A DNA stretch of 64,000 bases from NCBI RefSeq assembly GCF_016432865.1, contig NC_067399.1, positions 124,496,001-124,560,000 of the forward strand. The letters run 5' to 3'. Both the position numbers and the translations under genes were made by a program. Positions 7,203-62,129 of the stretch are shown one piece after another. Numbering within the stretch: position 1 is the stretch's first letter; every line of letters starts with the position of its first letter. The notes beneath the pieces are model-generated. The model was not told where the DNA came from. It made no database searches and saw only the letters and a program-made list of their open reading frames with translations. The stretch comes from Antechinus flavipes (Eukaryota).

Positions 7203-8922
7203 AAATCCTATACCCAAAACCTGGTGCTACAGGGTTCTCTCCTCATTGGTGGAAATGAATGATTTGCCCTGGGTGAAGAATAGGATGTGGTGAGACTGTG
7301 AGAGCTCAAGCTTTCTTTAGTCTTTTTCAGAACTCTTCAACCTTAACACTGCTTCAGTTTCTTCTGACTCACAGCTTTGAAAGGAAAAATGGAAGCAGTC
7401 ATCCCCTTTTAGGCTGCTGAAAGCAGAGTCCAGAAAAAAAGTGTGTGTGTGTGTGTGTGTGTGTGCTTTCTCTGATTTCTGTTTTGCTATCAATTTGGAT
7501 GAATATATTTTCTTTGTTATTTACTATGTGTGTTCATTATGGACCTGGTATTTGGAAGTATGGAAGTCAACTGTTGTATAAAAAAATCTAGGGTTCTCTT
7601 TACCTCTAATAATAACACCATGTTCAGAAATTAGATTAAATTTAATTATATTTTCCTAGATTAATAACATTTAGGAAAGAAGGCAGATATAATTCTAGCA
7701 CAGCACCTTCTCACTCTAAGGAGAGCAGCGGTAACCTCTGGCCCCAAGTTCCTGCTTTCTCTCCAGAAAGAAATTAAATTTAGCTTCCCTTAAAGTAGGA
7801 GAGAGAAGAAGCTAGAGATATCAGTTCTGCCCTCCTTTGAAACACACAATACTCTCATATTATATGTTTTCACAACATATTGACACATATTGAGCCTCAT
7901 TATATATGTAGCATCATGTTTAGATGGACATGTTTAGATGGGTCCATCCAAGAACGTTGAGGAATATATCATGACCTATATATGTGATTGTAAAATAGAA
8001 GCAGAACTGAGAATAAAACTGAATCCTCTTGACAAGCAGATTTTGGCGCATTGTAAGGAGGGAAATTCAACTACAGGTATTGAGAATAGAATGGAATTTC
8101 TTGAAAAATGATGAGAACCCTAATAAGGAAAAACTAAATAAGACCTTTTCAGGGACTTTAAAATGAGAATCCCTGTATTAGAGTGAACTAGATTAATACC
8201 ATTTCAACAAAAGATACCATTTCACCCATTTCAACAAAGATACCATTGGGGAATTATAGATAGGAAAGCATTGGAAAATTTGGTAATATTTTTCAAATGG
8301 ATGGGAGGTCAATAGCTAACAGAGAAAGACAAGCATTTCAGACATGGAGTACAGGCAGAGAAAAGATAACCACTAGACCTGAGAGACAGAATACCTTATT
8401 TATGTAATTGACAAGAGTCCAGTGTCACCAAATTGAACAGTAAGTATCAAAAGTGGATAATAGTAAAAAGAATTAAGTAACAAATTATGTAACACTTTAA
8501 GATTTGCAAAACACTTTATAAATTTTATCTCATTTTCCCTTCAAAAATAACCCTAGGAATATGTTATAATTATCCCCAATTCATAGGTAAAGCTAATGAG
8601 GCAATCAAAAGTTAAGGAATTTGCCTAAAGTCACACAGATAATGTCTAAGACCAGATCTGAATTCAATTCTTCCTGATCCCAGATTTAACCCTAAACCAT
8701 CTAGTTTCATATCATTCTGGTGTAGTAATAAGAGAATAAGTGACATCTATTTTTGTTGACTAAATTCAATTTTATTTTATTTTAAATTTTAAAGTCTCTC
8801 TCTCTCCACCCTCCTCATCAATTGAGAAGGCAAGAAAAACAAGTCATTAAATATAGATAATCATGCAAAATAAGTTCCTACATTAACCACAGTCAAAAAC
8901 AATGAAAGAAAGAGAACAAAAT
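7203..8922. repeat. Tandem duplication, copy 1 (~1.72 kb)
   Basis: Matches 8919-10636 base for base except 7244 C/8960 T, 8048 G/9764 T and (TC)6 vs (TC)5; the junction shares AAAT. Confidence 0.97.
7441..7465. repeat. (GT)12 microsatellite (second copy at 9157-9181)
   Basis: Directly visible; same length in both duplicated copies. Confidence 0.95.
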
Positions 8923-10636
8923 CCTATACCCAAAACCTGGTGCTACAGGGTTCTCTCCTTATTGGTGGAAATGAATGATTTGCCCTGGGTGAAGAATAGG
9001 ATGTGGTGAGACTGTGAGAGCTCAAGCTTTCTTTAGTCTTTTTCAGAACTCTTCAACCTTAACACTGCTTCAGTTTCTTCTGACTCACAGCTTTGAAAGG
9101 AAAAATGGAAGCAGTCATCCCCTTTTAGGCTGCTGAAAGCAGAGTCCAGAAAAAAAGTGTGTGTGTGTGTGTGTGTGTGTGCTTTCTCTGATTTCTGTTT
9201 TGCTATCAATTTGGATGAATATATTTTCTTTGTTATTTACTATGTGTGTTCATTATGGACCTGGTATTTGGAAGTATGGAAGTCAACTGTTGTATAAAAA
9301 AATCTAGGGTTCTCTTTACCTCTAATAATAACACCATGTTCAGAAATTAGATTAAATTTAATTATATTTTCCTAGATTAATAACATTTAGGAAAGAAGGC
9401 AGATATAATTCTAGCACAGCACCTTCTCACTCTAAGGAGAGCAGCGGTAACCTCTGGCCCCAAGTTCCTGCTTTCTCTCCAGAAAGAAATTAAATTTAGC
9501 TTCCCTTAAAGTAGGAGAGAGAAGAAGCTAGAGATATCAGTTCTGCCCTCCTTTGAAACACACAATACTCTCATATTATATGTTTTCACAACATATTGAC
9601 ACATATTGAGCCTCATTATATATGTAGCATCATGTTTAGATGGACATGTTTAGATGGGTCCATCCAAGAACGTTGAGGAATATATCATGACCTATATATG
9701 TGATTGTAAAATAGAAGCAGAACTGAGAATAAAACTGAATCCTCTTGACAAGCAGATTTTGGCTCATTGTAAGGAGGGAAATTCAACTACAGGTATTGAG
9801 AATAGAATGGAATTTCTTGAAAAATGATGAGAACCCTAATAAGGAAAAACTAAATAAGACCTTTTCAGGGACTTTAAAATGAGAATCCCTGTATTAGAGT
9901 GAACTAGATTAATACCATTTCAACAAAAGATACCATTTCACCCATTTCAACAAAGATACCATTGGGGAATTATAGATAGGAAAGCATTGGAAAATTTGGT
10001 AATATTTTTCAAATGGATGGGAGGTCAATAGCTAACAGAGAAAGACAAGCATTTCAGACATGGAGTACAGGCAGAGAAAAGATAACCACTAGACCTGAGA
10101 GACAGAATACCTTATTTATGTAATTGACAAGAGTCCAGTGTCACCAAATTGAACAGTAAGTATCAAAAGTGGATAATAGTAAAAAGAATTAAGTAACAAA
10201 TTATGTAACACTTTAAGATTTGCAAAACACTTTATAAATTTTATCTCATTTTCCCTTCAAAAATAACCCTAGGAATATGTTATAATTATCCCCAATTCAT
10301 AGGTAAAGCTAATGAGGCAATCAAAAGTTAAGGAATTTGCCTAAAGTCACACAGATAATGTCTAAGACCAGATCTGAATTCAATTCTTCCTGATCCCAGA
10401 TTTAACCCTAAACCATCTAGTTTCATATCATTCTGGTGTAGTAATAAGAGAATAAGTGACATCTATTTTTGTTGACTAAATTCAATTTTATTTTATTTTA
10501 AATTTTAAAGTCTCTCTCTCCACCCTCCTCATCAATTGAGAAGGCAAGAAAAACAAGTCATTAAATATAGATAATCATGCAAAATAAGTTCCTACATTAA
10601 CCACAGTCAAAAACAATGAAAGAAAGAGAACAAAAT
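8919..10636. repeat. Tandem duplication, copy 2
   Basis: Direct repeat of 7203-8922 at offset 1716 (1714 after the TC indel). Confidence 0.97.
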
Positions 10637-20059: not shown

Positions 20060-20945
20060 TAAGATGAGAGGAAAAAATAATGATGAATGTTGGAGGGGAT
20101 GCGGGAAAACTGGGACACTGATGCATTGTTGGTGGAGTTGTGAACGAATCCAACCATTCTGGAGAGCAAACTGGAATCAGGCCCAAAAAGTTATCAAACT
20201 GTGCATACCCTTTGATCCAACAGTGTTACTTCTGGGCTTATGCCCCAAAGAAATAGTAAAGAAGGGAAAGGGACCTGTATTTGCCAAAATGTTTGTGGCA
20301 GCCCTGTTTGTAGTGGCTAGAAACTAGAAATTGAATGGATGCCCATCAATTGGAGAATGGCTGGGTAAATTGTGGTATATGAATGTTATGGAATATTATT
20401 GTTCTGTAAGAAATGACCAGCAGGATGAATACAGAGAGGCTTGGAGAGACTTACATGAACTGATGCTAAGTGAAATGAGCAGAACCAGGAGATCATTATA
20501 CACTTCGACAACGATATTGTATGAGGATGTATTCTGATGGAAGTGGATTTCTTTGACAAAGAGACCTAACTCAGTTTAAATTGATAAATGATGGACAGAA
20601 GCAGCTACATCCAAAGAAAGAACACTGGGAAATGAATGTGAACTATTTGCATTTTTGGGTTTTTTCCTGGATTATTTTTACCTTCTGAATCCAATTCTCC
20701 CTGTGCAACAAGAGAACTGTTCAGTTCTGCAAACATATGTTGTATCTAGGATATACTGCAACATATCTAACATATATAGGACTGCTTGCCATCTAGGAGA
20801 GGGGGTGGAGGGAGGGAGGGGAAAAACCAGAACAGAAGCTAGTGCAAGGGATAATGTTGTAAAAAAAATTACCCTGGCATGGATTCTGTCAATATAAAGT
20901 TATTATAAAATAAAATAAAATATATTTAAAAAGAAAGAAAGAAAA
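20060..20945 (+). mobile_element. Young 5'-truncated L1 insertion with intact TSD
   Basis: L1 ORF2 C-terminus (CWRGCGKTGTLMHCWWSC..CPSIGEWLGKLWYMNVMEYYCSVRNDQQDEYREAW..) with a single in-frame TAG at 20325-20327; 3' UTR; A-rich tail; 12-bp TSD AAAGATAGCCAG at 20048-20059 and 20946-20957. Confidence 0.95.
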
Positions 20946-26190: not shown

Positions 26191-28879
26191 GATTTTGCAA
26201 AGACTGTCCCTCATGTCTGGAATATACACTCTTTTTTCTCTTGGAATCTCTAATTTTTCTCAAAGCCCATTTAAATCCACATCACCTACATGAGGTATTT
26301 TGTAGTCTCTCCATCATCAAGGTAATTTGTATTTATTCCCAACCCCCCCAAAAAAATTGGTTTGTGTTTATTTGTTATATATTATAATAGCTCTTTACAA
26401 AGCTATATGTTATATATTTTTGGTATACATTTGTGTGGATAGATGTGGTTTCCCTGTTAGAATTAAATGTTAATTAATTAATGTTTTATTGTCTCTATTT
26501 AAATTATTTAAATATTTAAATTTATATTTTATTCTCTGTATTTTCATTGCCTAGTACAGTGCCTGTCACATAGGTATTCAAGAAATGTTTCTTAATTGGT
26601 TGATTGATTCATAATGGAACAGAGGTTCCAGAGACCTAATGAAAGAGTAGATAATGAAAGAAGATAAGGAAGGATAGAGAGACTTAGATTAACATGGAGA
26701 GGTAACTAAAGAAAAGGATTTTTACCCCTGCGGATGATTGGTTCTAAACCACAGAACCTAAAAGAGTTGAAGGTAAGAATTTGTTATTCAAGAGACTGAG
26801 AGAATAGTAACCAGAGGTATAAACTTAAGTAGTCCCCAAGATTTTAATTAAAATGTTGGTGTGAAGACATCTCTTCAGATAATATGTCCCAAGATAGGAC
26901 CTTACCTCATTTGCTCTTGGGACAGAAAAAGTTTATGGTGACAAAGAGCTTTTGGTAGCTCTCTAGGTTGCCTGAGATATAGCTAAGTGTTCTCTAGCCA
27001 TCTCATTTATCTTGGTTTTCATCTTATATTGCCACCCACTGCACATTAACCAAACCACTTTTGTTCTATTCTTCCCAGTCTCAAGATAAAACAAACCAAA
27101 AACCACACAACTAAGCTATTAAAAAAAATTAAGTTCATTTACAATCCAAAGGGTGAAACTTGAAAAGAAAGTAAAACCTTCCCTTAAAGCTATTCCCCGA
27201 TCCCCACAAAAACCTCTTTTCTCTTTCTCTCCCTCCTTCTCACACTTCTGCAATCCCCCTAAACTAACAGGCAAACTTGAGCTAAAAGCTTAACACTAAA
27301 GGCACATTGTTATTCCTTTCTCAGAAGAGCTTTTGATGTAGAGGTTTTCAGTGACACCTTTCTGGGAAACATTTCCTTGGTTGAATGAGGAAATACTTTG
27401 CTCACTTTTACAATAGGTGATAATCTTTTAGAAACCCTTGACTTTGCTTCTCATGATCATCTTGTGTCAATGCTGCTTTCTGTCCCAAATTTATCCAAGA
27501 GAGAAAAAAGTAAGGAAGTTATTTTCTTAAAATTTAAATATCTATTTGCAAGGTCTAAAATTGAAAATGCTGAAAAATAGCAAATGGATCAAAGAAAAGA
27601 TCAAAGGAAAATTAATTTCTAGACTTATGCTGGTAGAGAATTTGAAACCAAATGTTGATTAATCCATAGAGATGGATAAAATCCCCTTTTCTGTAGCACA
27701 AAAAAACCCAAACTAGAATTTACCCTGTTCTATTATATAGAATCTAGAATGACTTGGATGAGAACTTAGAACATAGTGCATAGACTGTCAAAGATAAAAT
27801 GTAGTCTAGAACAGAAAGATTTTAGGACATAAAATGTCAAAGATAAAAGGAATCTTTGGAGGATAAAAAGACAAAATTTTAGATTCTGAAATAACTTTGA
27901 AACAAGAAACATATCATCAATCAATTATCAAATATTCATTAAGTACCTAATGTGCCAGCCAACCACTGTATTAGACTCAAAGAATACACTTTAAAAAAAA
28001 TGAAACAGTCCCTCTCTCAAAAAATTTACACTCTAGGGGGTGGGAAGTTGCCACCCCCCCCCTTAAATGTGAGTTTTGAGAGCACAGATAGTCTTTTGCC
28101 CCTTATCAGATCTCTAATCCATAATGCATAGTAGGCACTTAATATATATATTTGTTAACTTGGGAAGACAATGTGTACATGTACATATGTATCCAGAATA
28201 AATAAATAAATAGATATAAAATAAATAAAAGATCATTAAATAGAAGGTAGTTAGGAAGACGGGTATTAGCAGAGGATAGGATCAGGAAATACTCCATAGA
28301 ATGGGTTGCTTGAGTTAAATTTTGAAGGCAAAAGAGGGATTCTTTGAGGCAGAGTCCCATATATTTCAGGAAGAGAGGATAGACTGCTCAAAATTTGCAG
28401 AGATGAGATATGAAAAATTGGGTTTAAAGAATAGCAAAAAGCACAGTTTGGTTGAATAATGGAGTATGAGAAAATTGAGTAATGACAAGTTGATGACAGA
28501 TTATGATGGGCTTTGAATGGGAAAAGTTTGATATTTCTTCAAAGTAAACTATACATTAATGAATCTATAGGATTAGGTTCCCATTTTCCCCTGCCTGTCC
28601 TTCCTGGTGAACAATCCCCAGAATATGGGTAGACAGAACAATTCTGGGAATGTATAGAACAAACTGATCTAGTCTATATCTACTCAGCCCATATGTTGAG
28701 AACACATATCTCAGGGTCAGAAAAAGACATACCTTTGTTTCAATTTGAATTTATGTGTTGTTTCCCAGTTTCCTACTGATCTAGCACCTGTTTTCCCAGC
28801 CAGTGTCAGATTGTTTTAATGATTGATGCTTCTTAATATAGTTGTGTTTTTTTTTTTTAAGAGCTTTTGTGCTTAGAAT

Positions 28880-28951
28880 GTAAAGACACATTTTCAGCCA
28901 AGGAAAATGAGCCAGAAAGGAGGATGAGGGAAATTAATATTGAATCAGGGG

Positions 28952-28999
<48 letters not shown>

Positions 29000-29151
29000 A
29001 CATATATATTGCTTATGATGCTTATGCTGAAGGCATCACTTTTACCTCTTGTATAGTGAAAGTGATTCCTGCTTCTCATGACAAATGAATAAAACTTTTT
29101 CTTTATACCTGAGAGATCTATGAAATGTATTGGCGGATTATGTACCACACA
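28880..29151 (+). mobile_element. 5' LTR (at least R-U5) of a tRNA-Pro-primed class I ERV
   Basis: AATAAA at ~29088 and CA end at 29151, immediately before a Pro PBS; the 5' boundary (tgtaaagac at ~28880) is uncertain and includes a CA microsatellite. Confidence 0.55.
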
Positions 29152-29154
29152 GTT

Positions 29155-29172
29155 TGGGGGCTCATCTGGGAT
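29155..29172 (+). promoter_or_regulatory. Retroviral primer-binding site, tRNA-Pro
   Basis: tgggggctcatctgggat vs canonical TGGGGGCTCGTCCGGGAT, 16/18; both mismatches are CpG-type transitions. Confidence 0.85.
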
Positions 29173-29331
29173 CATGGGATCATTGGGGATCACCAGCTAT
29201 TGGAACTTGGCAAAAGATACTCCACCCAATTTCAGCAATTTGCCATAGGTGAGATTCCTTGTTGCCCCCTCACCCCACTTTGAGCAAAAGTGACCCAAGC
29301 AGAGAGACTCAGTATAAAATAAAAGTAAATC

Positions 29332-29611
29332 TGTATTTTAAAATCAGCTAGAGTCAGGAATTCAGGTTAACATCTTAACATAAGCTGATGTAGCCCCACT
29401 CACTCTTTGTGCAAGTTTTAATGTGTCATATAGGAAATGACATAGAGACGATTTTGGTAGGTGGAGGGAGAGAGGCAGAGAGACTGGTGGCCAGGTTCGT
29501 GTCGCGGCTGCTCACACTTCCTGTCACCATCCCCCTTCACCTCCCCAAAGAATAAAGATCGGGAATTTTCCCTTAACCTGAATTCCTGACTCTAGCTGAT
29601 TTTAAAATACA
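29332..29611. repeat. Perfect 39-bp inverted repeat (arms 29332-29370 and 29573-29611)
   Basis: tgtattttaaaatcagctagagtcaggaattcaggttaa is the exact reverse complement of ttaacctgaattcctgactctagctgattttaaaataca; 202-nt spacer. Confidence 0.95.
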
Positions 29612-29620
29612 TGATCATCA
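29371..29620 (+). mobile_element. 5'-truncated 5' LTR of a betaretrovirus-like (class II) ERV
   Basis: AATAAA at ~29551, ends ..atcatCA at 29620, followed by a Lys-type PBS and gag; body resembles the solo LTR at 39029-39428. Confidence 0.75.
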
Positions 29621-29624
29621 TATT

Positions 29625-29643
29625 TGGTGCCCAAGCATGGGAA
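29625..29643 (+). promoter_or_regulatory. Retroviral primer-binding site, tRNA-Lys type (degenerate)
   Basis: tggtgcccaagcatgggaa resembles TGGCGCCCGAACAGGGAC / TGGCGCCCAACGTGGGGC; the isoacceptor cannot be resolved. Confidence 0.65.
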
Positions 29644-29763
29644 CCAAGGACCCTACTTTCACTGAAGAAGTCTCCGGTGACCAGGAAATTAGATGAGTAT
29701 TTTAATAGACAAACAGGGAACTTACTTTCTTAAGGACTAAACTAGTAACCTTTTCTGGCTGAA

Positions 29764-30691
29764 ATGGGACAGATGTTAGGAAAAGATTCTCCTCCATCTC
29801 CTCCCCCCATCCCCGCCCCAGAGTGGTACTATGAGAAAGCATGCTTAAGCTGATAGAAGGACAAGGGCTACTTATAACTTGGGAACAGATTGCTAAACTT
29901 CTGGGTACATTAAAACGCACTTCCCCTTGGTTCTTAGAGGAAGAGCAAATCTCTCCAGATAATTGGACTTTAATAGGACAACAGCTTTCTCAATATAACA
30001 ATGAAAAAGGTCCTCATTCAATTTCCATCGAGGCATGCTATATATACAATATAATACAGTTGGCCTTAAAGAATCCTACAAGTTATAGAAAAAAGAAAAG
30101 TTCTAGGAATAGCCAGATGAGGAAGCCTGAGGAAAAGGAGGAAGACAATGAACAAATTAATGACCATATCCCCACAGGGCATGGAAATTTAAGTGAGGCT
30201 CAAGGGTGTGGTGAATTTCTATCACATGAGGCAGCTTCAACCCCATCTAAGTGTCAGGTAATTGACTCTCCTCCATCAACTCCATCTTCCAGAATGGAGG
30301 GAGGAGGAGTGGGGGGGGGGGGGGGGAAGGGAAGAGTGACAGCACCAGCACCTCCCCCCAGCATCAAACTGCTCCTATGAGTAGATTGCAAAAGACACTA
30401 CTCAAAGCCACAGAAGATGTAACTGAGCTCCGACCTCACATTTTTCCTGTGATTTAACAGTTTAACTCTTCAGGTCAAGAAAGTAGAAAATAAGCTCCTT
30501 TTGATATAGAAATCCTCAAAGACCTGAAAAAGGCTTGTTCTCTTTATGGGGCTACATCAGCTTATGTTAAGATGTTATTACAGAATTTGGCTTTTGAAAT
30601 CTTAACCCCTAATGACTGGAAATCTATAGCAAGGGTATACTTAGAACCTGGACAAAACTTGTTATGGCTTTCTGAATATAGTGAGCTCTGT
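29764..30691 (+). pseudogene. gag: Betaretrovirus-like gag pseudogene (matrix + spacer + capsid N-terminal part)
   Basis: Starts MGQMLGKD (Gly2 myristoylation position) at 29764; frameshift near 29830; matrix-like LLITWEQIAKLLGTLKRTSPWFLEEEQISPDNWTLIGQQL in ORF 29841-30380; second frameshift near 30365; two TAA stops; then 30494-30691 encodes APFDIEILKDLKKACSLYGATSAYVKMLLQNLAFEILTPNDWKSIARVYLEPGQNLLWLSEYSELC, typical of betaretroviral p24/p27 CA NTD. Confidence 0.9.
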
Positions 30692-30911
30692 CCTTATCCT
30701 GGCTTTGTCTAAAATGGAAGCAGCCCTGATATGTTCTAAAGAGAAAGAGAAAAAACTGGAAGACATTGGAACAATAAAAATCCCCTGAAGAGTATTGGCA
30801 ATTAATTGATGGGAGAAGAATGCTAAATAAGATCTTGATTGTATTGTATTAGGAAAGCCATTGGGTTGCTCAAACAAGGTGTGATATCTTTTCAGAAAAT
30901 GTGGCTTTATA

Positions 30912-31604
30912 GGTAACGAGGGGAGCCTGAAACTGAAGGGGAACCCCAAAACTCTCTGAAAACTCCTTCAAGGAAAAATTGTCCTTGAACCCTGCCTCTG
31001 TGAGACCCGCCCCAAGGAACCAAGATAAAGTGGTTTATCTTGGTAGGACTAGTTGAAGTAATCTCATTTAGCTAGACATCTAGATTTCTATTGACCCTTA
31101 TTGTTGGCTCAAAATCACTCCCAGTAAGTAATCTCATCTAGGCCTGGGGGCAGCATTGAGGGAATCTCATTCCATTGAAACTTCTGTATTAGATTTCCTT
31201 AGAAAAATGTCAATTTGGGGCTCAGTCCTGGCAGAGGACCTAATATGCCATGTCATGTATAGCAGCAACCTCTGCTCGCTGGAATGATATTCTCTTTCAA
31301 TGTTACCCTCTCATTATCTGTCTCACCTATTTCCCTAACAGATTTTAGACCTCTCTGGGGGGATTTCTCTACTACAAACTTTACTTCTCTGTCAGACCTT
31401 GCCACTAAGGAATTCAGTCTTTCTATTCATGCATAGCAAAGTCTGACTTCCTAATGCCAATAATTAACTTCTTTTTATCAGTCTAGCTTTTCAGGTTCAT
31501 AAATTCCTTTACAAAGGATCTCTGCAACTCCAGAAGAGGGGTTCCCAAAACTCCCTACCCATGTGCCAGATCCTAAGGGGATTTAGGGGAGCCAAACCTC
31601 TTCA
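30912..31604 (+). mobile_element. 5' LTR of a third ERV (class I, Glu-primed)
   Basis: LTR-like body with TATA-like 'tgtatagc' (~31257), variant poly(A) signal 'aataattaacttcttttt' (~31459) and U5 ending 'aacctcttCA' at 31604 just before the PBS; 5' boundary approximate. Confidence 0.65.
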
Positions 31605-31606
31605 TG

Positions 31607-31625
31607 TGGTTCCCTGAACCCTGAA
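31607..31625 (+). promoter_or_regulatory. Retroviral primer-binding site, tRNA-Glu type
   Basis: tggttccctgaaccctgaa vs TGGTTCCCTGACCGGGAA (first 11 nt exact); degenerate copies follow at ~31647 and ~31684. Confidence 0.7.
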
Positions 31626-34260
31626 CCTGCCACAAATCTCATCATCTAACTCCCTGATCACCAGGAACCCTAATCTTATCATTTTAGTTCCCTGAATCTA
31701 ACTCATCATAGGGATATCTGCAATTACCACACCTTTAAAAGAAATAGGCATTTCTGTGGATCTAAAACTGGTCAATTTGAGTCTGCAGAAATAATTAAAA
31801 GTTACGGAACTGTTAAAAACATTTTTAGTAGACTTCTGGGGGTTTTGAGAATAAGTTTTAAGTTGCTTGGCACTATCAGCTAAATTGAGTGAGTCTATTG
31901 TGTTTTTAAGTAGTCCTAATTTACATGATTAAAAGCCTTCTGAGGGAAACTGACAAAGCAAGGGAAAAAACTTGGCATTTCTGGGATTTTCCATGCTTTT
32001 CAGGTTTGTAGAATTTATCTTGCTTAGGGAAGTATCCCTGGCTGGCCTGAATTCATTTGGGGTTTGTGCTAGTGCCCCAACATCTTTGACATGGGTTCCC
32101 CTACCCAGCATTTCTGGCACAAAGGATAAGATAGTCACTGGGCCACAGACATGTAGCTGGACACTTGGGTCCAAATTTATCCCACCCTCTTCCCCCAGGG
32201 ACCTAAAGTCTGCCAATTTCTTAAAGCCCTGTAGTCAAGATTTGAAAGGGCAGACCTTAGGAAGTAAAGATTGCTGATCCAGACAACACCTTTGGAGTTT
32301 GTAATTCCAGGTGAGCTAGGAGTAAGAAGAACCTTATCAGATGTTATTGATGACTGAGATTGTGGTCCAGAGGCTGAGAAGAGGTGGACTTTACACCAAG
32401 ACTAAAGAACCTGTGGAGAAACCTCAAGAATGTACTGTTGAAGACAATTTATAAGCTGTAAAAACTGACTTTGCATCAGGGCAATTACTATTTTGACAGC
32501 CCTGGGAAAAGAGTTTGTTTTATAGTCTCCAAACAAGAAATGAGTTTATTGATAATCTACAAGTTAATTATATAAAAATTATTTTTAATGCTTATCTCAT
32601 ACCAGAATGAATTTTTATTATAAAAAGGATCAAAGATGTTAAGTGAAATCTCTTATGTGTGTGAAGTTTATCAAATTTTGTTTTAATTGATTGTATTGGG
32701 TCATTTTAAAGTTGTACCTATTATTTAAAGGGACTCTGAGAATAATAGTTTTTGCCTTTGTCCCTTTGAACATGTTTCTGGTATAGACAATATGCAATTT
32801 AGAGTTTTTTTATGTATTGAACATTTTAAAAACAAAATGATTTGTGTAATAGTGAATTTAAAACCATCTACTTAGATATGAAAGGTAGGCTTGAACTTTC
32901 TAGAATGAATCTCTTACTGTTATCAATGTAAGGTCATAGTCAATATCTATTTAGGATATGTGATCCTTGAGAGCTAAATTAACCTGAAGCTGTGATTAAT
33001 GAGATTTGCTATTTGAGATAAAATCTCTTGGGACTGTAGCTGATATTATTGGAGTTTTAAATTCAGGTTTGACTATCTGATGGATCATCAAGTCAGTGAC
33101 CTACCATCTGAAAGGAATATGCCACAAGCTACCCAGGAGAATGTGATCCTGAATTGTTCCCCTTCTGGGCTAATAAAGCCAGAGATAATAAGGGCCACCT
33201 CCAACCTAAACTTTGCCTCTGGAAGTTAGTATCTAGGCAAAAGTTGTGAGGATAACCTTGACCTTCACTTAAGGTAAGATCCGTCTGACTCATTTTCTCA
33301 GTGGTATACTTTTGAATAATTACACACCTGATTATTCCTGAGTCTGGCTTAAAGTGGAATTGTTACTATATGATTAATTGAAAATTGGGACAATTATCTG
33401 AAGTAAAACTGAGTTAAGAATGCTTTATCCTGTATCATGTATATGCTCTCAGAACCAGTTTTGGTGCTATTTAAATCAGGCCCCTGCCTTTTTTTCTCTT
33501 AAAACAAGTTTTTATGATCAGTAGAAACCATGAACACAATTCAAAAAATATGTAGTCATTATATCCTAAAGTAGTTAAATGAGTATTTGGCCTCTATTTG
33601 TCATCTATTTGTTGCTAAATGCATATATCTGTTTATTTATTTTAACATTCCTGTTGTTGCTGACTTTTTTGGTAGATATCTTTATTTTTGGAAGGTTTCC
33701 TACTCCAATTATTGGGGACATAACTGATTGGGATGGTAGATGGCCTTACTACCTAAGCTCAAGAAATAAAACTCCAGTCAATAAAAAAGAGATGTCTGTG
33801 GAAGGCTATCATCATAGCATTTGGTAGGGTCCTCCTATTCCCAATCTGTATTATCCAAGGTAATTAGAATAAAGGGCAAGGAAGAGAGGAAATTGTCTGG
33901 GTGATTTCATAGCTAATATTCCCATGACAAGAGACTATGTTTCCAGGAGAAAATACTGACTATTGGCTTGGTAAAAGAAATTACCAAGAATATTAGGAAA
34001 CTAGTGCATGCTCTGGTACATACTTGAAACTCTCCCTTTGGCACCTCATGGTGGTCCTTTGATTCTCCTTGGTAGCCTTTAGTAGACTTATTTCACTAGT
34101 CATCTGTTTATCCTACTTAATTCAGTTAATGACCCAAGTACCTCAGGATAGTCTTAACAAGATGCTGGTTACTTCCAATCAAACCTGGATGCTAATCTTG
34201 AAAGGACAAGGATGGATTCCCCTCAACATGTCATGAGTTTATCCCCTCTCCTAGAACATG
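31626..34260 (+). mobile_element. Decayed internal region of the Glu-primed ERV (no recognisable gag/pol; no 3' LTR)
   Basis: Leader-like sequence with donor CAG|GTGAGC at 32310/32311, long non-coding stretch, env remnant near the end; gives way to a SINE at ~34262. Confidence 0.55.
33690..34120 (+). pseudogene. env: env remnant, ERV3/HERV-E-like TM region
   Basis: 33968-34027 translates LVKEITKNIRKLVHALVHT* (TGA where Trp is expected), resembling the recalled ERV3-type TM motif IKEITAKIQKLAHIPVQTW; upstream IIGDITDWDGRWP and ARKRGNCLGDF loosely echo IGNWKDNEWPP and AAEGGVCGKF. Confidence 0.55.
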
Positions 34261-37200
34261 GATTATGGAGTCAAAAAGACCTACATTGAAATCCTGCCTC
34301 AGACACTATCAATGTGAACTTCTTTTCCAATAAGAAAGTTTGGTTCATTCTTTTTAATGAGCCAGCAATTAATATTTTAGAAACCAATTCAATTATAATC
34401 TATTTGACAAATATATACTGAGTATCTACTATATGTTCAATCCTCCTGGGACATTTAAATAACATTATAAGACTAATCCTTGGACTATACTCAGAAACCA
34501 TTCTTATTTTCTGACAGCCACTACATATGGATTTTTAAAGCTATCATTATTATCTGGAGAAAGACAGTCATAGACAGACATAAGTCAAAGACAGACAGAA
34601 TGAAAAGGAATGTAGCATAATAGAAAAAGTACTAGATTTGTAGTTAAAGGAAGCAATCTGGATTTGAACCTTGGCTCTATTATTTACCTGTGTGAACTTG
34701 GATAAATTATCTAACCTTTCTAGGCCTTAGTAAGCTTCTCAATAAAATGAAAGCACAAGTTTAAAAGTTGTTAAGGATTATTCCAATTATAGATTCTGTG
34801 ATTCTATAATTGTCTCTATTCCATAATTCAATTTCATCAATATTTAAAGAGGCAAAGTTTAGGTTGGAGGTGGCCCTTGTTATCTCTGGCTTTATTAGCC
34901 CAGAATGGGGATAAAACCTACAGAAAACTATACAATACAATATTATGTGATAAGGGCACTAGAGAGAGATTCAAAGAAGATACTTATGAGACCTGAAGAA
35001 GAAAAGGTCATTACCAAACAACAAAATCAGTGAAAGAATTCTAGTTGGGATGAGGCAGGATTGAGTTGGACTCAAAGGCACAATTTAGAATTCAGAGAGG
35101 AAAGATTAAGAAGGAAAAATTCCCAAATCATAAAAAGAGGCTTTAGCAAAAACAAAGAAACTAGAAGACAACAAAGTGCTAAGTTGTGGAAGGAAGCACA
35201 GAATCCTGAGGGAAAGCAGAGGCTCTCACCATTTCCTGGATCCATGAAAGTTTTTAAGAGATCAGCACCTATGAGGTCAATTATGCCTTCACAGCAGATG
35301 TGTAATGATAGCTCACTCAGACTCACCAGGCAAAAGTTTAGTCAAAGATGGGTAAACACACATTTCCAGGACACTTAGAGAGTCATCTTATCATCCTGTC
35401 TGTGATGAATCACCCTTGAGTGCATCTGGGATGATTTCTAAAGCAGATGTGTGTCTGTGCATGCATATTTGTGTGTATGCATGCAATAGCTTAATTGTAA
35501 GGATTCACTGCTAAGAGGCAAACAAAAGCAGTCTGAGTACTCCAGGAGAAAAAAAAATGAAAGCTCCTGAAAATAGTTGTGACCCAGAGTAGAGCTGGTT
35601 CTGAGAGTACAGGGAATAGTAGATCAAAGGGTAATAAGGGTGTCTAACAGGAGGAGAAGGTAGTTAGAGAAAACTAATTTCAGAAGACCAACAGAGACAC
35701 AGGGATGGAGAGTTTGATGCAAACATAAAATTACCTTTGATGGATTTTTATTCAAAATGATACCAATAACCTCTCTGTCAACAATTCAAAGCTATAGAGA
35801 AAAAGACTGGTATTTCTATTCTGATTCTTCATGGATGATGAGGCTGGGAAATGGAAGGGAAGATGAAGAGTAGAGGAAATTTAGCCTAGACAAAACACAG
35901 CAGTATTTAAAACTTGAAAGAGAATTTTTTTTAAAGAATTGAACAAGACCTCAGAGATTGTTTAGTCAAAGTATCCCCCTTTGGAGATGGGGAAACTGAA
36001 GCCTAGCCTAATCTGTCCAAGTCACTTAAACTTGGTAGGAACACGAGACCAAAAGCTAGATATATAAGTAAGAGAGGAAAACCAGGGTTTTATCCCAAAG
36101 TACTCAGTATAGATGGTCTTATGGAATATTATTCTTTCCCATGATGGTCCTCTCACTCACCAATTCCTGGCCAAGTTACACAATTTTTCCTATTTTCTCA
36201 TCCCAACCTGCTCTATATCTCCCCTTTTTCCAACTTAACTGTGCTCAAAAAGGACAGACTTTCTTCCAAATGAAGTTTTACTAGATGCCAGAATTTATAG
36301 TTAAAGATCTCTCAACCTCTACCTGATCTAATCAAGATACCATTACAATAGGTAGGTAGGTAGATAGATAGATAGATGTAGAATATTACAATATACTAAG
36401 ACTGCATCCCATAGATTTCTTATAGCTCCGGGAAGAACTTAAGAGTAGTCTGACCTCATTATGCCAAATAGAAATTTCAAGACTCTCAGGTGACCAAAAT
36501 CCAAGTAGATTATCATGCTGGCCAAAACTAGACTCTGTTCCTGCAATCTGGATTAACAATTGCCTAACATACCCATAGTCCATGTCCTTTTGGCTTTAGC
36601 AATGATTCTGTAGCTCTCAAGGTTAACCTGATAGTATGTCACTATTATACTGATTGTCATCAGACTTTATTAGGAGAAATACAGGAAAGAAGCAGGAAGC
36701 TTCAGCCTTAAGGTCAGAAGTATAAACAAGAACTTCGTGCTCTCATTTGTTGACAGTGAAGGTAGAAAATCTGCTAGGATACTGATGGCCAAACTGATAT
36801 GTTAGTTGGCAGCTTTATTTTTATTATTTGATACACAATTGCTATGAAACTAAGATGCCTTTCTCTAGATAAACTCATCACTTCTAAACTCACTACCACA
36901 TTGCTAACTCTAATCTTAACTGAGTCCACCTCCCTCAACCTCCTGTCCCCTTCTTAATTTGAGGCCTGAAGGAAAGAGTAACACCTCTTCTCAATGCTTT
37001 CCTTCAAAGAGGGCAGAAATTGAACTTTAACTCCACTTTGCATGTGCTGTTCTATCTGGTATCAACTCCCTGGAACAAGATGGCCCCATAACAGAAACCC
37101 CTGGTGTCCAGCTTTCCCCCTTTCCCTTCTTCCTGCTTTCTTGCCTCCTTTTGTGTGATATTAATTCCTTATAATCTAAGTTCCTTGGGGACAAGGACTG

Positions 37201-40064: not shown

Positions 40065-41087
40065 GATATGGTATTATATAAATTCAAAATGTAGCTTTAT
40101 TTTATACCAACCATTAAGCTATCTGCCTTCCCTCTCCATGATTCTAGAATACTAACAAGTGTTCTTAGATGATTTTTGATGGTGAGTATCCAAATGTTTG
40201 GATAGCTTTAATTTTCATCTCATGATGAATTGAATTTAAAGAGAAGGAAATCACTGATCCATTGTAGTTTATTTTAACTAGCTTAGATAATGTATCTGGG
40301 ATACAATAAGGATGCAATAAATCCCGACTCACAATCCATGTAACTTCCTATGCATGGTTTAAGTGAAGGATCTGTATACTTAACAACAGAAGATGCAGAT
40401 TTGGATCCCATCCTGACTTATGATCCACACAACTGGTCCCTTCTCTCTGAGTCTCAGTTTCCCACTCTGCAAAACAAAAATAACTCTTGCATTATTAAAC
40501 CTTCAATTGTTGTGAATATCCAATAAGATAACATACACAGGACTTTGGGATTTTCAAAGTGTGATGTGCTCTTATTCTTCTGACTTCAGAGGAAACCCAG
40601 TAGGATGCCCAGAAGTCCATGACTTCAGCATTCTTTCTAACAAATGCCTGTCAGGCAGTCAGCTTTGAATAGGAAATAAACTCCGCCATGGGCTGGAGGG
40701 AGACTTTCATCTGTGCATGACCACAACTGCTGTGAAGGTTAAAGAACAGTACTCTGTCTGCCAGAGGGGTTTTGCTATATGGCAATCTTCTTGAAGGAAA
40801 TAAAAGAGGAGATGGAGTAGCTTGAACTGCAACTAAGAATGTGCTCATTTTTAACAGCAGAGGATTAAAAAACAATTTCACACCCAGTAAATATGGTGTA
40901 ACTAATAGGATTTCTCTTTGGGGACCTCAACCAGGACTCCCACTCCAAGGTCTACAATCAGCCTCATTTCATTCTGGAGTGTAGAAACTGCTAAACTTCT
41001 GTTGGATTTCCGAATTACTTTCTTTTGGGTATCTTTGAGAGTATAGTATCCTAGAGGTGAGAGGTATATGCTCTTATAAAAGAAACT

Positions 41088-41555
41088 TACATGAACTGAT
41101 GCTAAGTGAAATGAGCAGAACTAGGAGATCATTATACACTTCGACAACGATATTGTATGAGGACATATTTTGATGGAAGTGGGTTTCTTTGACAAAGAGA
41201 CCTGAGTTTCAATTGATAAATGACGGACAGAAGCAGCTACACCCAAAGAAAGAACACTGGGAAACGAATGTGAACTATCTGCATTTTTGTTTTTCTTCCC
41301 GGGTTATTTATACCTTCTGAATCCAATTCTCCCTGTGCAACAAGAGAACTGTTCAGTTCTGCAAACATATATTGTATCTAGGATATACTGCAACATATCC
41401 AACATATATAGGACTGCTTGCCATCTAGGGGAGGGGGTGGAGGGAGGGAGGGGAAAAATCAGAACAGAATGAGTGCAAGGGATAATGTTGTAAAAAAATT
41501 ACCCTGGCATGGATTCTGTCAATATAAAGTAATTATTAAATAAAAATTAAAAAAA
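41088..41555 (+). mobile_element. Young 5'-truncated L1 insertion with intact TSD
   Basis: ORF2 end plus 3' UTR nearly identical to 20450-20930; poly(A); 10-bp TSD AAAAGAAACT at 41078-41087 and 41556-41565. Confidence 0.95.
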
Positions 41556-52850: not shown

Positions 52851-53846
52851 AGGGAGGAGGGTTAATTGGGGGTGATATATATGTGATGATGATTTACAAT
52901 GACCTTTTAATTATCAAATCTGATGGCCTTTTCTCAATTCTCATTTCTCTAAACCTCCCTCCAGCATTTAGCAGAGTTGACCAACAGCTACTACCACAGT
53001 TCACACTACCATTACGTCTTATCTGGATTATTGAAATATCCCCTAATTGGTGTCCTTCTTCAAATCTTTCTCCACTCTAATCCATCTGTACATAGGCTAC
53101 CAAAGTGATTTTCCTAAAACTGATATCTGACCATGTCATTCTCTGCTCAGTAAACTCCACTGCCTCCTTACTACCTCTAAGATGAAGGTGCCCAAACTAA
53201 AAGATTTGTTTGATACTCAGCATTTCCTTTTGAAAATTACACCCTGTATATCCACTGCAATTCTTATAATGCAGTAAATGATAAATAAATATCTTCTAGA
53301 CTGAATTGAATTAAAAGGGGATAAAAGATGTATGTAGTCTATGTGTGTTCTCTACAGACCTATACAAACATACCTAAATGTGAAGTGATTGGATAATTGT
53401 AATCCTCTGAATCCTGAATATAAGTTACACTCAAATGGGGTACTAAGCAAGAATAAAGAATAGTCCAGATGCTGCTCCGTGGCTCTATTTACATGTAGAG
53501 CTCATTCCCCCTGTCACTTGAGGAATGAGAAATGGATATCCCTTGAAAGGAGTAATCTGCTAAAACCACAGGAATGGAATAGAAAATGGTTGTTAAATAA
53601 CTCAGAACTCTTTCTTAAGAGCAAGAAGGCATTCACCTGCTAGCCTATGAGATAACTTTTTAAAATCTTTTTTTTTATAGTAGTAAAGGATAGCCTTCCA
53701 TCTCAAGAAATATTGCTTAATATGCTATCATGAGATTTCTACTAGATACATTTGTAGAAATTGACCAATCCTGTGAGCAACAACTGTCCATAAAAATATT
53801 TGTCTCTAAAAGAATCTTTCATTTCATTTTTAAAAGTCATAGCATT

Positions 53847-54711
53847 GAATGTTGGAGGGGATATGAGAAAACAGGGACACTGATACATTGTTGGTAGAAT
53901 TGTGAATATATCCAGCCATTCTGGAGAGCGATTTGGAACTATGCTCAAAAAGTTATCAAACTGTGCATACCCTTTGATCCAGCAGTCTCACTATTGGGCC
54001 TGTATCCTAAAGAGATCTTAAAGAAGGGAAAGGGACTTGTATGTGCAAGAATGTTTGTGGCAATCCTTTTTGTGGTGGCCAGAAACTGGAAACTGAGTGG
54101 ATGTCCATCAATTGGAAAATGGCTGAATAAATTGTGGTATATGAATGTTATGGAATATTATTGTTCTGTAAGAAATGACCAGCAGGGTGATTTCAGAAAG
54201 GCCTGGAGAGACTTACATGAACTGATGCTGAGTGAGATGAGCAGGACCAGAAGATCATTATACATTTCAACAACAATACTGATGGACATGGCTCTCTTCA
54301 ACAATGAGATGAACCAAATTGACTCCAATAGAGCAGTAATGAATAGAACCAGCTACATCCAGCAAAAGAACTCTGGGAAATGAGTATGAACCACTATATA
54401 GCATTTCCAATCCCTCTGTTTTTGTCCACCTGAATTTATGATTTCTTTCATAGGTTAATTGTACTTTATTTCAAAGTCTGATTCTTCTTGTGCAGCAAAA
54501 TAACTATATGGACATATATACGTATATTGTATTTAACATATACTTTAACATATTTAACATGTATTGCTTATACATTAACATGCTATCTGCCATCTTGAGA
54601 AGGGGTGGGGGGGAAGGAGGGGAAAAATTGGAACAAAAGGTTTTGCAATTGTCAATGCTGAACAATTACCCATGCATATATCTTATAAATAAAAAGCTAT
54701 TTAAAAATCAA
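53847..54711 (+). mobile_element. 5'-truncated L1 with decayed 16-bp TSD
   Basis: ORF 53994-54383 is L1 ORF2 C-terminus; TSD taaaagtcatagcatt (53831-53846) / taaaagccataacatt (54712-54727), 14/16. Confidence 0.93.
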
Positions 54712-56939
54712 TAAAAGCCATAACATTTAGTGGAAACCTTAACGATAACTGCTTGTTAGCTAAGTTGAGAAGAAAAGGATTGTGGGCCAATGAGAAAGAA
54801 TGTGGATTTTTTCATTGTCTTTCTGTTATAAACTATAGTTAAGTTCTCTACAAAGCTTCATTAGGTCCCTGTAAAAACTGAAAAAGAGACTTGACAAGGT
54901 TCTAGAACAATACAAACCAAAATGAACAGATTATTTCCATACAATGCCAGGCACCAAATTAGCTTGAACTAATTCCAGGACGATTCCTTTTCAAAGGACC
55001 AGCTCATCTCCAGATCTCTGTATGTCAGGTCAGTTACCTAAAAAAAAATAAATTAAACTTCATTCATAGGACAGGAAACTGAGGAACAGAGATTGAATTG
55101 TACCTAATACAAGATGCATTTGATTGAAAAAAAGCAACTTTGGAATGAGGCCAAATGGCTCCTACTTCTGAGTAGGTACCCTTGAGCTGTCTGAGGAAGA
55201 CTGCTTCAGTCTTAAGAAGCACTTGCCTACTCTTGGCTAAGAAAGAGATTTGGGCTGAGGATCAAAGAAACCAGCACTTTAATCCAAGGACAGAAAAGTG
55301 TTTGACTCAGAAGTCATGGTCCCTATTTTGTGGCTTCTCTTTTCTTCTTATGCAAGATGAAAAGTTTCTTCTTTTACCTCCAATTAGGCTTATTTTATCA
55401 TGCCCACTTCACTGCCAACAAGTTGTACTTCTTGTTCCCTGTCTGGGAACAAGATTAATGCCCAAGATGGTCAAGACCAAGACTCAGCAGCTTTTGTGAG
55501 GTTTTGCTTGTCATACATGTCTCACTCCTCAGGCAGATATCTCTCAACTTTCATCCTCAGAGTCAAAAAGAAAAAGCCGAAATGTCCCTGACTTTAGATG
55601 ACAGGCTGGTCCATCATCTGAAGTGGGTACATGGGACTTGATGACACATGCTTTCTGTGAATGTCACACTTATGAGACACAAAGGGGTAGAACAACAGAA
55701 GGCTTGTATTTGGCTCTGGAAATGTTTTTTGTTTGGGGTTAAATAAGTGATTTCTTTAATGTTCTTTGAGGAAATCATGTCTATGTAATTTCTTTTCATT
55801 ATTTTAACACACACACACACATACACACACACACATACATACAGTTGGGAGAAGGGGGAAGTAAATATAAAATAAATGCAATACAAAAGACTGAACCTTG
55901 GAGAGACATTCCATGTGGGGATAAAAGGAAAAAAATATGAGTTAAAAAAGGAAAGGAAGTAGGGTTAGAACTATGTTGTGCCTCAGAAACCAAGGGAGAA
56001 AAGCCTTCTAAAGAGGAGCTGGTCAATAGCAATGTAGTAGATAGAATAAGGGATTGGCAGTCAAGAATATCCAAATTTAATCCTACATCTGTTGCTTACT
56101 AGCTTCATCAATGCAAATTGGTGAGCAATTTTTTGCCCAGAATCATTTCCAGTTTGTTCCCAGTATGTGTCCAATTTAGAAATTGAACCCAAGGTCTTCT
56201 TGGCTTTAAGGCTGATAATCAATTATCAAACTGTGTACTAGTCTGTTTTTAATATTATTACTATGATTATTATTGAGTAACTATTAATCAGGTCATTGAT
56301 GACCTTGGAAAAAGTGGTTTCAGTAAAGAATGGAAGAGACTGAAGAAAGATTGAAGGGACTGAGAAGAGAAAGAATAATGAAGATTCAAACAGATACAAA
56401 GTATTTTAGTTACTGCTTTGGGGTTAGGATCAGAAATTTCCTCTCTTACTTCCCCATTTGTCTCTGACACAGACAGACCTAGAAGCTATTTTTCCTAATG
56501 AACACGATGAATTGGGATCTCTAGAAGCCCAAAAAATCCTGGGGAAAGTTTTTAGTAGAAGCTTTTAAAAGGACCGGCAAGCTTTCTTTTAGCAGTTCTC
56601 TTTTGTCCTAAATGATTCTTCTAAAAGTCAAAACTCATGGTCTTCATAGAAAAATAGCTCCTGAAGGGTTTTCCTTTATGATAGATATTTTTTATCTAAG
56701 TCCTTCTCTAAGGAATCCTAGGGAAAAGCAAACTTTATATTGCTTTTTGAAAAACTGAAAATTTTCCATTTCCTTAGAAGAATGTATCATTATATTTATA
56801 GTCAGAAGAGAAATTAAATGTCATCTATCCCAACTCTCATTTTGAGGTAAAGAAACTAGGGTTTGGAAAGCTTAAGTCTAAGGTCATATTAATATTAAAT
56901 GGTGAGAGAGAATTATGGAAACTAAATATGGATCGCAAG

Positions 56940-61204: not shown

Positions 61205-61358
61205 AAATATGTTATGTATTTCAATAAATAGTGGAAATATACATGGCCTTGTATAAAATTGCATTACCATTTCTATTACTTACTATCTTTTTAAAATGTG
61301 TTCCTGTTGAAGTTTCAAAGTTTTGTTCTTTTATCCCCATTTTTCTGATAATCTCTCT

Positions 61359-62129
61359 GCAATTTGGAACTATGCTCAAAAAGTTCTCAAACTGTGCATA
61401 CTCTTCGATCTAGCAGTGTTACAACTAGGCTTATACCCTAAAGAGATACTAAAGAAGGGAAATGGACCTATATGTACCAAAATGTTTGTGGCAGCCCTGT
61501 TTGTAGTGGCTAGAAATTGGAAAATGAATGGATGCCCATCAATTGGAGAATGGTTGGGTAAATTGTGGTATATGAATGTTATGGAATATTATTGTTCTGT
61601 AAGAAATGACCAACAGGATGAATACAGAGAGGCTTGGAGAGACTTATATGAACTGATGCTGAGTGAAATGAGCAGAACCAGAAGATCATTATACACTTCA
61701 ACAACTATACTGTATGAGGATGTATTCTGATGGAAGTGGATATCTTCAACAAAGAGAAGATCCAATACAGTTCCAACTGATCAATGATGGACAGGATCAG
61801 CTACACCCAGAGAAGGAACACTGGGAAATGAATGTGGACTACTTGCATTTTTGTTTTTCTTCCCAGGTTATTTTTACCTTCTGAATCCAATTTTTTCTTG
61901 TGCAACAAGAGAACTGTACGGATCTGCACACATATATTATATCTAAGATATACTTCAACATGTTTAACATGTATGAGACTGCCTGCCATGTAGGGGAGGG
62001 GGTGGAAAGAGGAAAGGGAAAGTTGGAACAGAAGTGAGTGCAAGGGACAATGTTGCAAAAATTACCCATGCACATGTTCTGTCAATAAAAAGCTATAAAA
62101 AATAAAATAAAATATAGATTGGAAAAAAA
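61359..62129 (+). mobile_element. 5'-truncated L1
   Basis: ORF 61323-61730 is an open L1 ORF2 C-terminus (IWNYAQKVLKLCILFD..CPSIGEWLGKLWYMN..TTILYEDVF) followed by 3' UTR and A-rich tail; no TSD found. Confidence 0.92.

What the first reader, a model, noticed from the sequence alone, without database searches (positions are those of the whole stretch)
28880..34260. Stack of three different ERV 5' ends in the same orientation, each with a different tRNA primer (Pro, Lys, Glu)
Seen within ~2.5 kb: LTR end plus Pro PBS (29155); then LTR plus Lys-type PBS (29625) plus betaretroviral gag; then LTR plus Glu-type PBS (31607) plus an internal region with an env remnant. None has a visible 3' LTR and no TSD separates them. 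Established: Pro and Glu priming are typical of class I ERVs and Lys of class II; recombinants between unrelated ERVs occur in marsupials (recKoRV/PhER in koala). Inference: either serial nested insertion followed by deletions, or a chimeric class I/class II element that moved as a unit. This is the best candidate for an undescribed system in the window.
Basis: partly seen in the sequence, partly recalled or inferred. Interest (0 to 1): 0.7.

Follow-up and report, generated by a model that had tools for sequence, protein, structure and literature searches.

The report
Nested retroviral fossils bearing tRNA scars
Three dead retroviral elements sit nested at this one site instead of forming a mobile hybrid, and the stray primer site inside one of them is likely a scar of the viral copying enzyme overrunning its tRNA primer, an error that left dozens of fossils elsewhere in this genome.

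Summary
Not three 5' ends and not a mobile chimera. One old Pro-primed, apparently non-coding ERV (A; LTR really starts at 28514) hosts everything; the 'Glu internal region' is A's own. Inside A lie (C) a solo LTR with a 4-bp target duplication (30914-31708), whose U5 tail contains the 'Glu PBS', and (B) a 1.3-kb Lys-primed betaretrovirus-like piece that replaces ~2 kb of A, with inverted templated fillers and microhomologies. Both B junctions are single-copy; contigs of related runs lack them, so the cut is recent. That part is ordinary. The relic PBS led further: C-family LTRs carry ladders of 1-5 PBS relics, and 80 LTR-type ends in this genome are followed by antisense tRNA-Lys copied past the 18-nt stop. 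39 of the 80 carry a mismatch exactly opposite A58 (background 16 of 595), the reverse-transcriptase signature of m1A; all 39 are independent events. Ten paper searches and three look-ups in this scan's notes found no description of this; other mammals were not testable.

The parts
28514..29152 (+). 5' LTR of outer element A (with an expanded CA microsatellite at about 28945-29012)
   Evidence: 73-86% to both LTRs of paralogs L055-L061
29155..29172 (+). tRNA-Pro primer-binding site of A
   Evidence: 16/18 to the genome's tRNA-Pro genes
29153..29333 (+). A leader, cut off here; about 2 kb of A is missing after it
   Evidence: paralog L055 has about 2050 nt between the equivalents of 29333 and 30693; contigs of X4, X6, X8 match to 29333-29345 and then run on unlike
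29332..29370 (-). Filler 1: inverted copy of 29573-29611 (U5 of B)
   Evidence: 39/39 identical; shares two states rare among 11 other B copies
29368..29398 (-). Filler 2: inverted copy of 30547-30577 (B gag); overlaps filler 1 by 3 nt and B by 6 nt
   Evidence: 31/31 identical
29393..29622 (+). Partial LTR of B, lacking its first ~100 nt
   Evidence: 11 of 11 other copies continue upstream, 10 of them with visibly shared sequence; position in full copy L062
29625..29643 (+). Lys-type primer-binding site of B
29764..30691 (+). Broken betaretrovirus-like gag (MA and part of CA), cut at 30691
   Evidence: Pfam Gag_p10, Gag_p24; best PDB hits capsid p27 and HERV-K Gag; 11 of 11 other copies continue into gag
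30687..30913 (+). A internal sequence resumes (3-5 nt microhomology with B); ends in the left TSD 30910-30913
   Evidence: 71-78% to five A paralogs; contigs of X1, X6, X8 begin matching at 30687
30914..31708 (+). Solo LTR C
   Evidence: 4-bp TSD; empty site in four A paralogs; 83-87% to the 13 copies fetched; G at 30915 (TG start) in X6, X8, X9
31607..31708 (+). U5 tail of C: three modules, each a decayed tRNA-Glu PBS plus spacer plus a repeated LTR end (relics at 31607, 31647, 31685)
   Evidence: 13/18, 10/18, 11/18 to the genome's tRNA-Glu genes; module ladder in other copies
31709..34228 (+). A internal region (right TSD 31709-31712; ~0.7-kb deletion at 32253; truncated at 34228, so polypurine tract and 3' LTR are lost)
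   Evidence: colinear with L055, L056, L057, L059, L060; no Pfam domain in three frames
33163..33220 (-). Filler 3: inverted copy of flank 34848-34905 inserted in A; older event
   Evidence: 57/58 identical; absent from six A paralogs; spanned without gap by an X8 contig
34848..34905 (+). Template of filler 3 (host flank)

Best explanation
An old Pro-primed ERV (A) holds a solo LTR (C) with an ordinary target duplication and a Lys-primed betaretrovirus-like piece (B) that was likely cut down in place by a recent template-switching repair event, and the 'Glu PBS' is a relic inside C's LTR that likely arose when reverse transcriptase ran past the stop on its tRNA primer and jumped back to the LTR end. 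Shown: the nesting, the TSD, the fillers, the single-copy junctions, PBS relics inside TSD-bounded LTRs, and tRNA read-through products with a mismatch peak at A58 elsewhere in the genome. Inferred: that B first sat here as a longer provirus; that one MMBIR/polymerase-theta-type event made both deletions and both fillers; that priming at the downstream of two PBSs fixes the upstream one into U5; that the A58 mismatches come from m1A.
For: Nesting: A paralogs carry LTR, leader, 30689-30913 and 31708-34228 in one colinear element; C site empty in four of them. Junctions: B/A 18-mer exact once; 12 of 12 one-mismatch hits unrelated to these ERVs; filler/B 25-mer once at up to 3 mismatches; best other copy of A's LTR-leader 80%, of B 88%. 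Age order: C/A junction spanned in X1, X6, X8; 3' truncation in X1, X6, X8, X9; B junctions absent in X1, X6, X8 (at 30687) and X4, X6, X8 (at 29333-45), while X1 still holds 81- and 88-nt B pieces identical to the window at single-copy depth. Fillers are 70/70 identical to local B though B is 12% from its nearest copy. Relics: 23 hits for LTR end + intact Glu PBS, control 0; by eye 19 of 23 are followed within ~60 nt by a second LTR end, none of 23 shares downstream sequence at the first threshold, two share a diverged interior. L143 shows PBS + 7 further tRNA letters + LTR end; L259 shows B LTR + 56 nt tRNA + LTR end + second PBS + normal interior. Read-through: 40 of 63 tRNA-Lys pattern hits carry genomic CCA, 37 of 40 after an LTR or shared LTR-like end, 25-76 nt long; 80 hits with A58 free, control 0: T 41, A 33, C 5, G 1 (counted from its rows).
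Against: The unrearranged allele was not read: a full B provirus in cis is inferred, and B's start lies ~25 nt after a TATA-like motif, which would also fit an RNA-derived insert. The only run with the B/A junction (X2, 30662-30956, 0 differences) has 25-30 letters on the B side, under the tool's 31-letter bar; no run was seen to bridge the filler junction. DNA searches scored only 40 candidates each (of 11,382 for B, 198 for A's LTR). The 2-mismatch junction pattern gave 236 hits against 59 for its control, and the 223 two-mismatch hits were not inspected. TSD-bounded ends were called in only 13 of 60 C copies and a 4-nt match can be chance. Relic number is mixed inside the long-tail clade, so there is no simple one-way ratchet, and the tree has no outgroup. 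Many module spacers resemble leader or U3-start sequence rather than tRNA, so plain tandem duplication may make some modules. Read-through counts are ascertained by pattern; no rate per provirus is known.
Confidence: 0.8

Rival explanations
1. The B piece was captured from elsewhere (another locus or its RNA/cDNA) into a break in A in one repair event, rather than trimmed from a provirus already nested here.
For: B begins ~25 nt after a TATA-like motif, a plausible transcript start; fillers and both deletions would need only one event; related runs show A running on at both junctions.
Against: No near-identical donor among the 40 best-scoring candidates (best 88%) or within 20 kb of the window; X1 holds identical B pieces at single-copy depth without the B/A junction; no poly(A).
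Confidence: 0.14
2. A class I/class II recombinant (recKoRV-like) formed during reverse transcription and moved as a unit.
For: A and B are in the same orientation with microhomology at the B/A junction; such recombinants exist in koala and use microhomologies (PMC6112702, passages).
Against: Junctions single-copy; related runs carry the same A insertion without them, so the join formed after integration; inverted fillers copied from within B; A had already lost its 3' LTR in organisms that lack the join.
Confidence: 0.03
3. The B junctions are an assembly artefact.
For: No run bridges either junction by the tool's 31-letter rule.
Against: An X2 contig runs from B into A with 0 differences; short inverted fillers with microhomologies are typical of repair, and filler 3 is present in X8.
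Confidence: 0.03

Closest known systems
Nested ERV insertions and solo LTRs
   Same: C is a TSD-bounded solo LTR inside another ERV; solo LTRs are the commonest ERV form in a dasyurid genome (64,546 of 77,446; PMC11334065, passages). Other A copies also carry inserts at other places (L057).
   Different: C's LTR ends in stacked PBS relics, which ordinary solo LTRs lack.
recKoRV (KoRV x PhER recombinants)
   Same: Two unrelated ERVs joined at a microhomology.
   Different: recKoRV1 recurs at 12-14 loci per animal with TSDs and two KoRV LTRs (PMC6112702, passages); here each junction is single-copy and post-dates integration.
Complex germline templated insertions (MMB-TI / MMBIR; polymerase-theta end joining gives similar scars, recalled)
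   Same: Short inserts copied from nearby templates, serial switches, microhomology at junctions; 26-33 complex germline cases per human (PMC8421209, abstract and section 10 part 1).
   Different: Templates lie 0.2, 1.15 and 1.6 kb away and accompany kilobase deletions inside ERVs.
Read-through of the plus-strand strong stop at tRNA m1A58, and the RT signature of m1A
   Same: Copying beyond 18 nt of the primer (PMC8599865, abstract and introduction); misincorporation opposite m1A, with low template-C signal when G follows, as here: G in cDNA 1 of 39 (PMC4787781, abstract and section 27).
   Different: That introduction says read-through products cannot complete synthesis and integrate; here at least 80 did, in the germ line, and some enlarged the LTR. 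Older vector studies of tRNA inserts at aberrant strand transfers are recalled, not checked.

Membership tests
Solo LTR (C) | TG...CA ends | tested here: met
   TA...CA in the window; TG in other copies and G at 30915 in X6, X8, X9
Solo LTR (C) | Target-site duplication and empty site in uninserted homologs | tested here: met
   4-bp TSD; four A paralogs contiguous
Solo LTR (C) | No own interior or second LTR | tested here: met
   sequence after 31708 is A
Class II / betaretrovirus-like ERV (B) | Beta-type MA and CA | tested here: met
   Gag_p10, Gag_p24; capsid p27 and HERV-K Gag best of 8 PDB hits
Class II / betaretrovirus-like ERV (B) | Lys PBS and 6-bp TSD | tested here: met
   Lys-type PBS; 6-bp duplication around full copy L062; not visible in the window piece
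Class II / betaretrovirus-like ERV (B) | RT phylogeny within class II | not tested
   RT, protease and integrase domains found in L062; no tree with references made
Class I ERV (A) | Pro PBS and 4-bp TSD | tested here: met
   16/18; 4-bp duplication around L055
Class I ERV (A) | Gamma-type RT | tested here: inconclusive
   no Pfam domain in three frames of the window interior, L055 or L056: non-coding or too decayed
Class I ERV (A) | Gamma-type env TM remnant | tested here: inconclusive
   no relevant Pfam hit; 33959-34072 resembles a class I TM tail only by recall
Mobile inter-class recombinant (recKoRV type) | Same breakpoints at several loci | tested here: not met
Mobile inter-class recombinant (recKoRV type) | Recombinant bounded by two LTRs and one TSD | tested here: not met
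   3' LTR absent, and lost already in runs that lack the join
Complex templated insertion (MMBIR/TMEJ type) | Inserts copied from nearby templates with junction microhomology | tested here: met
   39/39 and 31/31; overlaps of 3 and 6 nt; 3-5 nt at B/A
Complex templated insertion (MMBIR/TMEJ type) | Dependence on the named polymerase or pathway | not testable with these tools
   single fossil event
m1A58 read-through product | Antisense tRNA longer than 18 nt, with CCA, directly after an LTR end | tested here: met
   37 of 40 CCA-bearing hits; 33 of 39 non-T hits after B or shared LTR-like ends, 6 with unshared upstream. In the window itself the relics are too decayed to show it
m1A58 read-through product | Mismatch concentrated opposite A58 in independent events | tested here: met
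   39 of 80 against 16 of 595 elsewhere; 0 of 39 share a continuation

The most novel reading that the evidence does not exclude
This germ line preserves a genome-wide fossil record of retroviral reverse transcriptase overrunning the m1A58 stop on primer tRNAs: read-through products integrated scores of times, carry the misincorporation signature of the modified base, include whole antisense tRNA copies beside LTRs, and, when the enzyme jumped back to U5, made LTRs grow by swallowing their own primer-binding sites, as in the solo LTR here. It is undescribed as a genomic phenomenon and lets tRNA modification and RT fidelity be read from ancient germ-line events.
Probability: 0.5. Interest if true: 0.62.

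Novelty: new variant of a known kind. Interest (0 to 1): 0.42.

Why it matters
The stack itself matters little: nested, decayed ERVs with a repair scar. It is a caution that a PBS-like motif can lie inside an LTR and mislead annotation of element boundaries and primer use. The lead it opened matters more: whether m1A58 is the in vivo plus-strand stop has been argued for decades (PMC8599865 introduction), and read-through products are held to be dead ends. Here 80 integrated products give a count of bases put opposite A58 in the germ line, comparable across tRNAs, ERV families and species from public genomes alone. Whole tRNA copies fused to LTR ends also resemble the intermediates once proposed for the origin of tRNA-derived SINEs (recalled; one search found no such paper in the library).

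Tried and rejected
Constant ends of the B hits first suggested a discrete 1.3-kb mobile unit; rejected, as all 11 copies run on at both ends. Pfam on A's interior and the supposed env: nothing; the env question stays open. L106, a Glu-primed provirus related to C, also gave no Pfam domain. First tree discarded: the anchor was misplaced in about 11 rows; rebuilt with 58 of 61 rows (L084, L097, L104 dropped for lack of an anchor). A strict ratchet in relic number was not supported. One search's pattern found only tRNA-Pro genes, so Lys needed. No template found for the 34229-34260 junction or the 32253 deletion beyond 11-nt chance matches. Holes in contig cover (for example X2 over 29030-29293) were not used. 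No tRNA gene in the window. Paper searches for PBS relics in LTRs or tRNA read-through fossils: searches gave nothing on point; older subscription papers are not searched and no supplements were read. Scan notes: searches gave one unrelated note.
Full report
Setting. The window is G000:C2:124496001-124560000 in a 3.19-Gb genome with seven very large contigs; I infer a marsupial, probably dasyurid, host from this and from the repeats, without a test. All statements on copies come from G000 searches that score only the best 40 candidates, so copy counts are lower bounds.

The outer element. The first LTR starts at 28514 and ends at 29152; it is followed by a PBS matching the genome's tRNA-Pro genes at 16 of 18 positions. 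Paralogs L055, L056, L057/58, L059 and L060/61 carry this LTR together with 30689-30913 and 31708-34228 in one colinear element of about 6.8 kb with two LTRs (83% alike in L055) and a 4-bp TSD. No Pfam domain was found in three frames of the window interior, L055 or L056; A looks non-coding, and the env remnant is unconfirmed. The window copy has lost about 2 kb after 29333, about 0.7 kb at 32253 and everything after 34228.

The third unit is a solo LTR. It spans 30914-31708, is flanked by a 4-bp duplication, and four A paralogs are contiguous at the site. The junction is spanned by contigs of X1, X6 and X8, three organism labels, so the insertion is old. The motif at 31607 lies 100 nt inside the LTR and is printed in all 13 copies shown.

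The second unit. 29393-30691 is a piece of an abundant family with beta-type gag; a full copy (L062) has gag, pro, pol, two LTRs 89% alike and a 6-bp TSD. All 11 other copies fetched run on at both ends. Between A and B lie two inverted copies of B's own sequence, 39/39 and 31/31 identical, overlapping by 3 nt and ending in 6 nt shared with B's start. They carry two states rare among 11 other copies, and 70/70 identity is unlikely if they were as old as B's 12% divergence. The B/A junction motif occurs exactly once; all 12 one-mismatch hits are unrelated, 223 two-mismatch hits were not inspected; the filler/B motif occurs once at up to three mismatches. In public runs, contigs of X1, X6 and X8 match from 30687 with other letters before, and contigs of X4, X6 and X8 run on unlike after 29333-29345; X2, with the same organism label as X1, has a contig from 30662 to 30956 without differences, though its B side is below the 31-letter bar; X1 and X2 both hold B pieces of 81-88 nt identical to the window. 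The simplest reading is a B provirus nested in A, trimmed on both sides by a recent, probably still polymorphic template-switching repair event of the kind catalogued in human germ lines (PMC8421209, abstract and section 10 part 1). This refutes a recKoRV-like mobile recombinant, which recurs at many loci with TSDs (PMC6112702, passages).

Why a PBS lies inside an LTR. C's tail is three modules of decayed Glu PBS, spacer and repeated LTR end. A pattern for LTR end plus intact 18-nt Glu PBS gave 23 hits, control 0; by eye 19 are followed within about 60 nt by a second LTR end and then unshared flank, while L084 and L094 lead into a shared interior, showing that the family is truly Glu-primed. 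TSD-bounded ends were callable in 13 of 60 copies and form a ladder at +81-82 (4), +141-147 (2), +163-171 (5) and +184-188 (2) from a fixed anchor. On a tree of the sequence upstream of the tail, 45 of 46 long-tail copies form a supported clade, but relic number is mixed within it. L143 has PBS plus seven more tRNA-complementary letters joined to a repeated LTR end.

Genome-wide read-through. Checking the Lys primer exposed the general process. Of 63 exact hits to a tRNA-Lys 3' pattern, 23 are genes without CCA and 40 carry CCA; 12 follow a full B LTR, 25 other shared LTR-like ends, 3 unshared sequence; the antisense tRNA runs 25-76 nt. With position 58 left free and an LTR-type CA required, there are 80 hits, control 0, with T 41, A 33, C 5, G 1 opposite A58 (counted from its rows). 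All 39 non-T loci were fetched: none shares its continuation with another, and other non-CpG tRNA positions differ at 16 of 595. The 41 T hits were examined only in part (those also). This is what misincorporation opposite m1A predicts, including rare dG when G follows (PMC4787781, abstract and section 27). L259 shows the step that builds a module: B LTR, 56 nt of tRNA, LTR end, second PBS, normal interior. Priming at the second PBS would make the first part of U5; that step is inferred. PMC8599865 (abstract, introduction) states that read-through products fail to integrate; these did. PMC11334065 (passages) has no mention of primer-binding sites; PMC7472051 (passages) discusses PBS mutations, not read-through.

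Verdict. The flagged stack is an ordinary nest with a recent repair scar (interest about 0.2 alone). The relic PBS is real, unusual anatomy, and the read-through fossils with an A58 mismatch peak are well supported in this genome; their novelty is uncertain because other mammals and older literature could not be searched. Overall 0.42.

Noticed in passing
G000 genome-wide; L191-L292: LTR ends of several Lys-primed families followed by antisense tRNA-Lys past the 18-nt stop: 80 pattern hits, 39 with a non-templated base opposite A58; 11 of the 79 loci measured hold a full 76-nt copy; 7 of 12 B cases jump into B's interior at 7 different places.
   Followed up: yes
L139, L144: A different LTR family with LTR end + 53-64 nt antisense tRNA-Glu; L144 continues into an inverted LTR end.
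   Followed up: partly
L097:525-659 (-) and PBS about 860 nt upstream (G000:C4:8400492): A CpG-rich C-related LTR end with an intact Glu PBS lies upstream of, and in line with, an exon with a weak ATG16 hit (E 0.011, below cut-off); ATG16L1 identity is recalled. Possible LTR-derived promoter.
   Followed up: partly
window 7204-10636: About 1.7-kb tandem duplication, 99.6-100% identical: very recent duplication or assembly duplicate.
   Followed up: no
window 33163-33220 / 34848-34905: A second, older inverted templated insertion within 4 kb of the B fillers; the scan found only these three exact-type inverted fillers in 64 kb.
   Followed up: partly
L057:3341-6845: Another A copy carries a different LTR-bounded, gag-containing insert in opposite orientation.
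   Followed up: no
L199, L208, L209, L278: Lys-family LTR ends with an extra end module, a second PBS, or an inverted LTR end after the tRNA copy.
   Followed up: partly
window 20084-20915, 41081-41545, 53846-54712, 61277-62108 and inverted copies: Dispersed LINE-like 3' fragments; family label recalled, not tested.
   Followed up: no
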